DNA of 64,000 nucleotides from Octopus vulgaris (Eukaryota), in NCBI GenBank assembly GCA_951406725.2, contig OX597817.1, positions 60,636,001-60,700,000 of the forward strand, read 5' to 3'. The notes below the pieces were generated by a model. That model worked only from the letters and a program-made list of their open reading frames with translations. It was not told where the DNA came from and searched no databases. Position numbers and translations under genes: made by a program. Position 1 is the first letter of the stretch; every line of letters begins with the position of its first letter. Below, one piece after another: positions 16,497 through 17,533 of the stretch.

Positions 16497-17180
16497 GTGT
16501 TTCCCTAAAACTTGAGAACTACACAACCAATTTCATTCAAATTTCACTCATGCCTTACTTAGGGTCCATGTAGTTTCATGGGCAAAAAAAGAAGTTCAAC
16601 TTCTTGCCTAGAGCGAGCCCATAGCAATATCATATCTTCTCCACTATTTCAGTATTACGTGTTAAAAGTGAAACAAAAACATTTCTCTATTTTATGTCAG
16701 ATGCTTTCACTTTAACAATAAAAATAATAATAACAATTGAATTATATGTAGTAAGTAATAATTAAAATCAAACTAAAGTATAATATAATCGTAACATAAC
16801 AAAAGTTAAAATAGCAATTGGTATAAAATTACATCAATGATTTGAACTTGAATAAGTGGTTTCACATGAATGGGAATAAATTAAAGATAAAATTAGCATG
16901 CAGAAATGGAATAGTCCAGATGGATAATAAAACATTAAATTAAAGAAAAGACTATTGTCTATAAAGTATACAATGTAGAGAAAAAAGAAGAGCTAGCAAT
17001 TCCAGTCTGTTATATATTTTGAGTATTGTTATCACTAGCGATATCAAGATATAACTTTGTATTTTGCATTTTATGTGTAGATGTATATATATAGATGTAC
17101 AAGTAATATGTACACATATATATACACATATATACATGCACTAGCACTATGACCCGGCAACGACGGGTCTTTAATGCTAG
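16387..17180 (+). mobile_element. Non-autonomous Helitron
   Basis: 5' TC followed by (TA)n AAAA and a (GTCT)n tract; 3' hairpin gacccgg-caacga-cgggtc (17151-17169) then CTAG (17177-17180); A^T target. Confidence 0.8.
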
Positions 17181-17190
17181 TATATATATA

Positions 17191-17400
17191 ACGGGAATCT
17201 TTATGAAAATAAACAAAAGACGAAGGCAGGTGGAATACAAACAAACAATTGTATTAGTATGGTGCTCAGGAATATAAATAAAACAAGTCTTTTACGTTTC
17301 GAGCCTACGCTCTTCAACAGAAAGATACACAGAAAAGAAACACAGAAAGAAACAAGGAGAGAAAAAAAATGCGTGCAGAGGCTAGCGAATCAACATGGCG
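17191..17400 (-). mobile_element. ~200-bp hammerhead-motif repeat (family H), flanked by a 17-bp direct repeat
   Basis: atgctagtatatatata at 17174-17190 and 17401-17417; homologous copies at ~31003-31188, ~32160-32350, ~43127-43324 and ~43792-43995. Confidence 0.8.
17288..17325 (-). ncRNA. Minimal type I hammerhead-ribozyme-like motif (variant core)
   Basis: TCTTT-CTGTTGA-A-GAG-cgtagg-CTC-GAAA-CG-TA-AAAGA: helix I 5 bp, helix II 3 bp, palindromic ACGT helix III; core departs from CUGANGA. Confidence 0.5.
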
Positions 17401-17533
17401 ATGCTAGTATATATATATATCACGTGATCACGTGACCGACCAGACCATCAGATGTTGTTACACATCGCTGGTCACAATGCGTTCGCATTGTTTTAGCCTT
17501 CGAATGACGCCACCCCGCTGGCTAAGCGAGCAG

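What the first reader, a model, noticed from the sequence alone, without database searches (positions are those of the whole stretch)
17174..17417. Abundant ~200-bp mobile element carrying a non-canonical minimal hammerhead ribozyme motif
Seen: five related copies in 64 kb (17191, 31003, 32160, 43127, 43792), all in or beside TA/CA microsatellites. This copy has a 17-bp direct repeat, consistent with a TSD. No ORF and no tRNA head were found. The best-conserved part reads CTTT-CTG-NN-GA-N-GAG-cgtagg-CTC-GAAA-CG-TH-AAAG. That gives helix I (CTTT/AAAG), a short helix II, a palindromic ACGT helix III and a GUA/GUC site. Known: this is the layout of minimal, dimer-cleaving type I hammerheads of Penelope-like elements and retrozymes. 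Unusual: core position 6 varies (U, U, A, U, C) and there is one extra base before helix II; it can also be read as a 3-nt insertion, CU-GNN-GANGA. Inference: a non-autonomous ribozyme-bearing retroelement family with a variant core, possibly undescribed in cephalopods.
Basis: partly seen in the sequence, partly recalled or inferred. Interest (0 to 1): 0.72.

Follow-up and report, generated by a model that had tools for sequence, protein, structure and literature searches.

The report
Penelope end piece with altered hammerhead
This repeat is the cut-short tail of an abundant, recently active protein-coding jumping gene (a Penelope-like element), and it carries a hammerhead-shaped RNA motif in which one normally fixed core letter is changed (A to U) throughout the family, which likely slows self-cutting (untested) without stopping the element from spreading.

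Summary
The repeat, the 17-bp duplication and the hammerhead layout are real; "non-autonomous family" is not supported. The 210 bp are the 3' end of the terminal repeat (pLTR) of a Neptune-type Penelope-like element. Six of 20 fetched loci have two such repeats around an intact RT + zinc-finger + GIY-YIG frame. Position 6 is not variable: U in 15,172 of 15,728 exact motif matches, A in 161. The extra base before helix II is a published trait. Across 33 copies the ten other core positions show no shared variant, while the two positions that hammerheads leave free (7 and 17) vary, so the fold stays under constraint despite A6U. Of 90 young copies, 35 start 105-120 nt upstream of the predicted cut and none at it. 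The short form is therefore likely a run-off from the transcript start, primed at an internal UAUAUAU, on uncut RNA. Six of 30 longer copies are short deleted tandem units resembling nascent retrozymes. Cleavage is untested. The scan noted this A6U core before in another genome, and variant cores elsewhere in this one. One key paper (Lünse 2017) was unavailable.

The parts
17191..17400 (-). 5'-truncated copy of a Neptune-type Penelope-like element: the last 210 nt of the pLTR, from the putative transcript start to the reverse-transcription start
   Evidence: 40 best genome matches 98-100% identical; 98% to both pLTRs of full-length L061; ~92% to pLTRs of intact-frame copies
17174..17190 (.). 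Target-site duplication, copy at the element's 3' end; the element's 3' end abuts a (TA)n run
   Evidence: exact 17-nt repeat, only two occurrences in the window
17401..17417 (.). Target-site duplication, copy at the element's 5' end; its two element-side bases are also element sequence (AT microhomology)
17321..17325 (-). Hammerhead helix I, 5' strand (UCUUU)
   Evidence: pairs with 17292-17288 in the fold of the 52-nt fragment; fourth pair covaries CG/GC/AU across sister families
17313..17320 (-). Core box C3 U4 G5 U6 U7 G8 A9 plus the extra A (17313); the A6U change is at 17317, the free position 7 at 17316
17301..17312 (-). Helix II, 4 bp GAGC/GCUC closed by G10.1-C11.1, GUAG loop
   Evidence: (100% of cells paired)
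17293..17300 (-). GAAA box, palindromic ACGU helix III (predicted to need a partner copy) and GUA triplet; predicted cut between 17293 and 17292
   Evidence: sequence; layout as in PMC4209133
17288..17292 (-). Hammerhead helix I, 3' strand (AAAGA)
17191..17287 (-). Remainder of the 102 nt downstream of the predicted cut, ending at the fixed 3' end (...CCCGT then TA); fairly conserved, likely the protein-binding / priming region
   Evidence: 88 of 90 young copies followed by TA; fewer changes than upstream flank
30991..31199 (+). Older copy of the same U6 family, helix II damaged
32141..32380 (+). Strongly diverged related copy with A6 core and damaged helices; left out of the 33-copy family statistics
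43120..43334 (-). Older U6 copy (N7 = C, GUC triplet)
43782..44005 (-). Older copy of the U6 family with a private C at position 6 (N7 = A)
16207..16384 (+).
   Evidence: nhmmer E 6e-9

Best explanation
[quoted passage not shown] Steps. (1) Shown: the unit is ~4.5 kb, pLTR - 5' UTR - one ~1,080-aa frame (RT, CX4CxxC finger, GIY-YIG) - pLTR. (2) Inferred: transcription starts inside the pLTR about 111-117 nt upstream of the predicted cut. (3) Shown in sequence, mechanism inferred: all copies end at one point, where the unit itself reads UAUAUAU, so the endonuclease would nick (TA)n and the target end would pair with this internal tract to prime reverse transcription. (4) Inferred: priming just behind the first pLTR lets the enzyme run off the RNA's 5' end after ~210 nt, which gives the dominant short class, this copy included; it passes through an uncut hammerhead. 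(5) Inferred: priming behind the second pLTR, with a homologous jump, a tandem template or a circle, gives long, randomly ending, more-than-unit copies. (6) Shown: the hammerhead core is under constraint with the hammerhead-specific pattern; inferred: the constraint reflects residual, regulated cleavage.
For: Autonomous parent: L061 has pLTRs at 2536-3071 and 6781-7309 (95%) around RT and GIY-YIG pieces; 9 of 20 fetched loci have one open frame >=1,115 aa with RT, finger and GIY-YIG motifs, 6 of them with a U6 hammerhead in both pLTRs, and all cores read (19 of 20 loci) are U6; PF00078 above its cut-off. U6 fixed: 15,172 U, 161 A of 15,728; in contigs of 4 public runs only position 7 varied at >=5% between 17288 and 17324. 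Constraint: 0 of 10 core positions versus 74 of 137 other positions with a shared variant, p=7e-4; N7 T9/C10/A8/G6, H17 A21/T8/C2; parsimony steps 0.6 versus 2.8 per site, N7 9, H17 6; one helix I pair covaries across families. Run-off class: 35 of 90 copies chosen only by their last 39 nt start at -120..-105, 0 of 90 within 3 nt of the cut; 0 of 30 among junction-bearing copies. Internal TATATAT in 9 of 9 two-pLTR copies. Literature: natural A6C cleaves slowly, <0.1/min (PMC3088659); a Poseidon PLE hammerhead needs the element's protein, and its catalytic mutants do not affect insertion in vitro, where unprocessed RNA is the main template (PMC11167929).
Against: No cleavage or expression evidence was obtained. 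In the full 210-nt RNA the hammerhead helices have low predicted probability (helix II 0.17, helix I 0.03-0.04), the two-copy minimum-energy fold is not a double hammerhead, and the ACGU duplex is weak (-3.7 kcal/mol). Position 6 on its own is not shown to be selected: 38 of 137 ordinary sites change as little. Covariation rests on one pair in 19 hand-picked rows. The 33-copy set was found with a profile from the five window copies, and 400 of its 1,064 kb were picked where copies looked dense. The transcript start is inferred from copy ends only. On the second pass only 1 of 21 copies that reach this point stop there, against 35 of 65 on the first (p=3e-5), so one linear template does not explain both classes. 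The GIY-YIG Pfam match is below its cut-off. The nearest full-length copies examined of this copy's own GUA subfamily (L061, L062) have broken frames. H17 variation, plain in the genome, did not show in the contig table.
Confidence: 0.58

Rival explanations
1. The motif no longer cuts at all. A6U killed catalysis, and the three-way fold is kept because the element's protein, or the transcription or export machinery, recognises it.
For: 0 of 90 and 0 of 30 copies begin at the cut site; catalytic mutants of a related hammerhead still support insertion in vitro; the loop of helix II is conserved too; no A6 subfamily expanded (1.0%); the next most abundant sister family carries another weakening change, U4C, in about 70 of the first 100 listed matches.
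Against: The constraint covers the catalytic G8 and G12 and the C3-G8 pair, and position 17 varies among A/U/C with G in only 1 of 33 copies, as the NUH cleavage rule predicts. A natural A6C ribozyme is slow but listed as active.
Confidence: 0.27
2. The U6 ribozyme is efficiently active in the cell, for example rescued by the protein. It cuts both pLTRs, the unit is ligated into a circle, and circles are the templates of the more-than-unit copies.
For: 20 of 30 junction-bearing copies run far past the putative transcript start and only 1 stops there, as expected for a template without a 5' end; this is the model of PMC4209133.
Against: Short tandem units with repeated junctions arise at sites 56-177 nt from the cut, so end-to-end or homologous jumping exists without the ribozyme. 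Tandem full-length arrays exist as possible templates (three junctions ~4,470 bp apart on C6). No run-off at the cut site.
Confidence: 0.1
3. One reading: the ~200-bp copies are a separate non-autonomous, SINE- or retrozyme-like family with its own master, mobilised by a Penelope partner.
For: A discrete size class, 35 of 90 young copies, whose 5' boundary is kept in old window copies; true short tandem derivatives exist.
Against: Short copies track the autonomous subfamilies (99.5-100% to an intact element's pLTR); they are single, with one hammerhead and no terminal redundancy; 5' ends form a continuum into the reading frame; no tRNA head.
Confidence: 0.04
4. The motif is a neutral remnant carried along at the end of the element.
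For: A6U is a damaging change by the standard mutational analysis cited in PMC3088659.
Against: Core positions change about five times less than flanks across subfamilies 20-27% apart, with only N7 and H17 free.
Confidence: 0.01

Closest known systems
Minimal type I hammerheads (min-HHR) in pLTRs of metazoan Penelope-like elements (Cervera and de la Pena 2014, PMC4209133; parts 1-2 of 4 and supplement parts 1-2 of 3 read)
   Same: Short helix I, extra base after A9, G10.1-C11.1, palindromic positions 15.2-16.2, NUH site, location in both pLTRs, mostly single copies from truncated elements. The Acropora Neptune row of Fig. S3 has nearly the same layout, with a 4-bp helix II and GAAA-CG-UC.
   Different: A6 is U. 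Every Fig. S3 row that I read has A6 (variants listed are U3-A8), and no cephalopod is among them. Their descriptor fixed the catalytic boxes, so an A6U family would be missed.
Neptune-clade EN+ Penelope-like elements (Craig et al. 2021, PMC8557442; passages and a supplement search)
   Same: One frame with DKG motif, RT, CX2-5CxxC finger and C-terminal GIY-YIG; partial tandems forming pLTRs; an inverted 5'-truncated neighbour (L062); (TA)n targets. The finger-to-GIY spacer resembles Neptune1_Nv, not Nematis (by eye).
   Different: Variant hammerhead core; a dominant ~210-nt product; clade not tested with a tree against named references.
Poseidon_Ac of Anolis (Frangieh et al. 2024, PMC11167929; parts 1-2 of 4 read)
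   Same: Reverse transcription starts inside the RNA, downstream of the hammerhead; AT-rich targets; uncut RNA is the template.
   Different: There the start site is not homologous to the target and two sites give a 'tail'. Here the single start coincides with a UAUAUAU that matches the (TA)n target. The Poseidon core has C3 and G8 tested; an A6 change is not reported in the parts read.
Natural core-variant hammerheads: A6C of phage Bcep176 and U4C of a viroid (Perreault et al. 2011, PMC3088659; passages)
   Same: A single change in the U4-G5-A6 turn with the rest of the core intact; low but detectable activity.
   Different: Those are isolated cases in full-size ribozymes. This is A6U, in a minimal ribozyme, fixed in more than 15,000 copies of an active transposon.
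Animal non-LTR retrozymes (Li, Clavereau and Pollet 2026, bioRxiv 10.64898/2026.07.22.740005; parts 1 and 3 of 5 read)
   Same: Proposed to derive from PLE pLTRs. The ~340-570-nt deleted tandem units found here (L357, L363, L365, L368, L372, L373) look like first steps of that origin.
   Different: The window copy is a single 210-nt piece, not a tandem. Each short unit has its own breakpoint, so none is shown to have spread.

Membership tests
EN+ Penelope-like element | One frame with PLE-type RT and C-terminal GIY-YIG endonuclease | tested here: met
   1,080-aa frame; PF00078 31.9 bits (cut-off 29.6); GIY-YIG E 0.007, below cut-off but with YIG and downstream motifs; relatives share the Pfam set
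EN+ Penelope-like element | Partial tandem giving pLTRs of variable 5' extent, fixed 3' end | tested here: met
EN+ Penelope-like element | The window copy is part of that pLTR | tested here: met
   98% to L061 pLTRs, ~92% to intact copies
Neptune clade | CX2-5CxxC finger between RT and endonuclease (shared with Nematis) | tested here: met
   CX4CxxC in the intact frames; definition
Neptune clade | Microsatellite (TA)n targeting | tested here: met
   88 of 90 young copies followed by TA
Neptune clade | RT phylogeny groups with named Neptune elements | not tested
   No named reference proteins in hand; spacer resembles Neptune1_Nv by eye; homologue list carries no clade names
Minimal type I hammerhead | Helix I and helix II around the core, G10.1-C11.1, extra base after A9 | tested here: met
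   low probability in the whole 210-nt fold
Minimal type I hammerhead | Core box CUGANGA with A6 | tested here: not met
   U6 in 15,172 of 15,728; so this is a variant, not a member of the canonical consensus
Minimal type I hammerhead | GAAA box, palindromic 15.2-16.2, NUH triplet | tested here: met
   GUA, GUU, GUC across subfamilies
Minimal type I hammerhead | Free N7 and H17 against invariant catalytic positions | tested here: met
Minimal type I hammerhead | Self-cleavage (as dimer or with protein) | not testable with these tools
   No assay; genomic footprint shows no copy starting at the cut
Non-LTR retrozyme | Tandem, terminally redundant non-coding unit with a hammerhead in each repeat | tested here: not met
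   Window copy and the 210-nt class are single pieces; met only by rare deleted derivatives elsewhere
SINE | tRNA/5S/7SL-derived Pol III head and an independent lineage | tested here: not met

The most novel reading that the evidence does not exclude
A whole active transposon lineage has retuned its hammerhead. A6U (and U4C in the sister lineage) would act as a brake that the element's own protein releases, so that most RNA is copied uncut. The genome then records the full cycle: an internal UAUAUAU primer-binding tract that explains (TA)n targeting, a retrovirus-like strong-stop product of ~210 nt that accounts for thousands of SINE-like repeats, and jump-generated short tandems that are retrozymes being born.
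Probability: 0.3. Interest if true: 0.66.

Novelty: new variant of a known kind. Interest (0 to 1): 0.42.

Why it matters
What Penelope hammerheads do is an open question: they are everywhere, cut poorly in vitro and were dispensable in the one reconstituted system. Here a family with intact, near-identical autonomous copies keeps the hammerhead pattern under constraint while carrying a change at a position regarded as invariant. This gives a natural test set from one genome (U6, C4 and canonical sister families, plus 161 A6 copies) for separating catalysis from structure. Standard descriptors miss these 15,000+ motifs. The copy-end statistics also offer a simple origin for many 'unclassified SINEs' in octopus annotations (893 recently active unclassified SINE families in PMC13282606; link untested) and show PLE-derived short tandems arising.

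Tried and rejected
Rfam: no hammerhead model matched the element, and none appeared among the 150 rows shown of 416 for the window. The repeat finder was swamped by microsatellites. The CU-GNN-GANGA insertion reading and a U3-start register (UUGAAGA) were rejected: neither keeps helix I and G10.1-C11.1, and sister families align without a gap. Footprint of cleavage, a lead from earlier scan notes: no copy starts at the cut (0 of 165 in held DNA, a biased set; 0 of 90; 0 of 30); three of 90 start 7-12 nt downstream, no more than background. Splicing as the origin of the short deleted units was rejected: breakpoints differ and lack GT..AG. No reading frame was linked to the C4 or canonical sister families in 30 loci, so their autonomous parents are not shown. 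Lünse, Weinberg and Breaker 2017 (RNA Biol 14:1499) is not held; only its title was seen and it may describe position-6 variants. Searches for A6U or position-6 variants and for octopus, cephalopod or mollusc PLE hammerheads found no description; the squid genome paper only counts 235 Rfam hammerheads. bioRxiv supplements were closed, and Repbase/Dfam could not be checked, so the element itself may already be catalogued.

Full report
Observation. The five copies are at the stated places and align. The focal copy spans 17191-17400 on the minus strand, between an exact 17-nt direct repeat that occurs only twice in the window. The motif reads helix I (17325-17321), C3 U4 G5 U6 U7 G8 A9, an extra A, a 4-bp helix II with a GUAG loop, GAAA, CG, UA and helix I (17292-17288). 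A 30-letter pattern with three free positions has 15,728 exact matches in the 2.8-Gb genome and the reversed control has none. Rfam finds no hammerhead on it and there is no tRNA. A sixth, distant copy with a canonical core lies at 16207-16384. The organism is called an octopus in earlier scan notes; I did not determine it.

What it belongs to. The 40 best matches are 98-100% identical. In the 30 fetched, the 3' end is sharp and followed by TA repeats, while the 5' ends are ragged. Walking upstream through a C/T-rich tract leads into a GIY-YIG coding region. L061 holds two pLTRs, 95% alike, around a broken RT-endonuclease frame, and L062 has the inverted truncated neighbour typical of Penelope-like elements. 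A search with the RT piece scored 150 of 12,768 candidates, many in open frames above 1,000 aa. Of 20 fetched loci, 9 have a single frame of at least 1,115 aa with RT, a CX4CxxC finger and GIY-YIG, and 6 of these have the hammerhead in both pLTRs. All cores read (19 of 20 loci) have U6, with a GUU triplet, in a pLTR end about 92% identical to the window copy. The frame matches PF00078 above its cut-off and GIY-YIG below it. The finger, the (TA)n targets and the spacer length point to the Neptune clade (no tree against named references). There are 1,439 homologues at E<=1e-30 among 7,987 scored, the top ones 54-59% identical, with named hits in a turtle, snails, an urchin and a shark.

The core. 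Position 6 is U in 15,172 and A in 161 of the 15,728 matches, so U is the family state and A is no commoner than decay. The extra base after A9 is in the published consensus (PMC4209133), and the Acropora Neptune motif has almost the same layout with A6. To test constraint I took 1,064 kb not chosen by the core pattern (400 kb of it picked where copies looked dense). A profile of the five window copies gave 65 hits, 53 spanning the motif. I kept the 33 with at least 85 bits, dropping the diverged 32141 copy, one deleted copy and 18 weak hits, nearly all from sister families. None of 10 canonical core positions has a variant shared by three or more copies, against 74 of 137 other positions (p=7e-4). 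N7 takes all four bases and H17 is A, U or C. Parsimony gives 0.6 steps per core site against 2.8 elsewhere and 2.3 in the conserved downstream part; N7 has 9 and H17 has 6. Position 6 has one step, but so few are seen at 38 of 137 ordinary sites, so selection on U itself is not shown. Across 19 hand-picked rows of three sister families one helix I pair changes on both sides (CG 6, GC 5, AU 2); the covariation score exceeds all 500 shuffles and all slides, but rests on that pair. Contigs of four public runs from three organism labels vary at 5% or more only at position 7 within the motif; H17 variation did not show there. Against easy folding: in the whole 210-nt RNA the helices have probabilities of 0.17 and 0.04 or less.

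Why 210 bases. A pattern of the last 39 nt has 2,881 matches. I examined 90 of the first 92 listed (two were already held). Thirty-five start 105-120 nt upstream of the predicted cut, none within 3 nt of it, 11 downstream of it, and 15 run on beyond 1,040 nt; 88 are followed by TA. Short copies of the GUU subfamily are 99.5-100% identical to an intact element's pLTR. In 9 of 9 two-pLTR copies the unit continues from the 3' end point with TATATAT. The simplest reading is internal priming by pairing with nicked (TA)n, and run-off at a transcript start inside the pLTR. Internal priming and copying of uncut RNA were shown for an anole Poseidon element, whose hammerhead cut only with protein and whose catalytic mutants still inserted (PMC11167929). 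Transcript starts inside the upstream pLTR are reported for PLEs (PMC6765202).

Longer copies. The pLTR/5' UTR junction has 163 exact matches. Among the first 30, 20 extend well past the putative start, 1 stops there and none at the cut. Long copies thus come from a template without that 5' end: a tandem, a homologous jump or a circle. Six of the 30 are short deleted units. In the five mapped, the junctions lie 56-177 nt upstream of the cut and differ between loci, and two loci repeat their junction twice. Jumping therefore occurs without the ribozyme, and more-than-unit length is no proof of cleavage. These units resemble the PLE-derived retrozymes proposed in bioRxiv 10.64898/2026.07.22.740005.

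Mechanism and odds. Shown: parent element, fixed A6U, hammerhead-type constraint, fixed 3' end at an internal TA tract, a dominant 210-nt class, no copy starting at the cut. Inferred: transcript start, pairing-based priming, slow and assisted cleavage. A natural A6C ribozyme cleaves at under 0.1/min (PMC3088659), which with the kept G8, G12 and NUH pattern favours 'slow' (0.58) over 'dead but structurally needed' (0.27) and 'efficient, circle-forming' (0.10).

Novelty. The element class and its hammerheads are known. I found no A6U variant and no cephalopod PLE hammerhead description in the searches, but Lünse 2017 was not held, bioRxiv supplements were closed and repeat databases were not available. 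The scan has reported the same A6U core in another genome and variant cores in this one; these are unchecked notes, not independent support. Notes gave me the idea of looking for copies that begin at the cut; in this family there are none. Papers seen: PMC4209133 (parts 1-2, supplement parts 1-2), PMC11167929 (parts 1-2), the 2026 preprint (parts 1, 3); passages only for PMC8557442 (plus a supplement search), PMC13282606, PMC6765202, PMC3088659, PMC6155905, PMC6466107, PMC11014351, PMC3846280 and PMC6962438. Hammerhead numbering and the roles of G8 and G12 follow PMC4209133 and PMC6155905; the NUH rule is recalled. Verdict: new variant of a known kind, interest 0.42.

Noticed in passing
window 60704-60779 (-): tRNA-Sec match above Rfam's gathering score (56.1 vs 47 bits) with the UCA anticodon; the 5' acceptor strand looks changed and a C run follows, so possibly a pseudogene. 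ARAGORN did not call it.
   Followed up: partly
window 38429-38565 (-): Diverged, isolated 5.8S rRNA-like sequence above the gathering score (51.8 vs 42 bits); no 18S or 28S among the rows shown.
   Followed up: partly
G000-wide pattern; e.g. L153:9252-9298, L123:5920-5966: Sister family with 13,644 exact pattern matches, about 70 of the first 100 with a U4C core (CCGACGA). Same ~200-nt geometry and a shared 5' boundary; no reading frame linked yet.
   Followed up: partly
L357, L363, L365, L368, L372, L373; G000:C8:18600699-18602209; G000:C2:121324535-121325036: Short internally deleted units (~340-570 nt) joining the first 210-300 nt of the 5' UTR to the pLTR end. L368 and L372 repeat the same junction twice; four junctions 492 bp apart on C8 were listed but not fetched. 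They resemble nascent retrozymes.
   Followed up: partly
G000:C6:117391911-117400891: Three unit junctions ~4,470 bp apart: a tandem array of full-length units, a possible multimeric template; not fetched.
   Followed up: no
L149:7464-7506, L258:2188-2230, L224:5188-5231; L236:7627-7674, L242:3671-3718: Two more hammerhead-like repeat families in held DNA: one with the U3-A8 core swap (UUGAAAA) and a UUU site, one canonical (CUGAUGA) with a long helix II.
   Followed up: no
window 34379-34618, 47620-47857, 31581-31766: Three copies of another ~190-240-bp dispersed repeat, 88-89% alike in inverted orientation; probably a SINE-type element.
   Followed up: no
L005:463-1461: A more distant PLE reading-frame fragment (47-62% to the intact frame) directly upstream of a 210-nt copy in the opposite orientation.
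   Followed up: no
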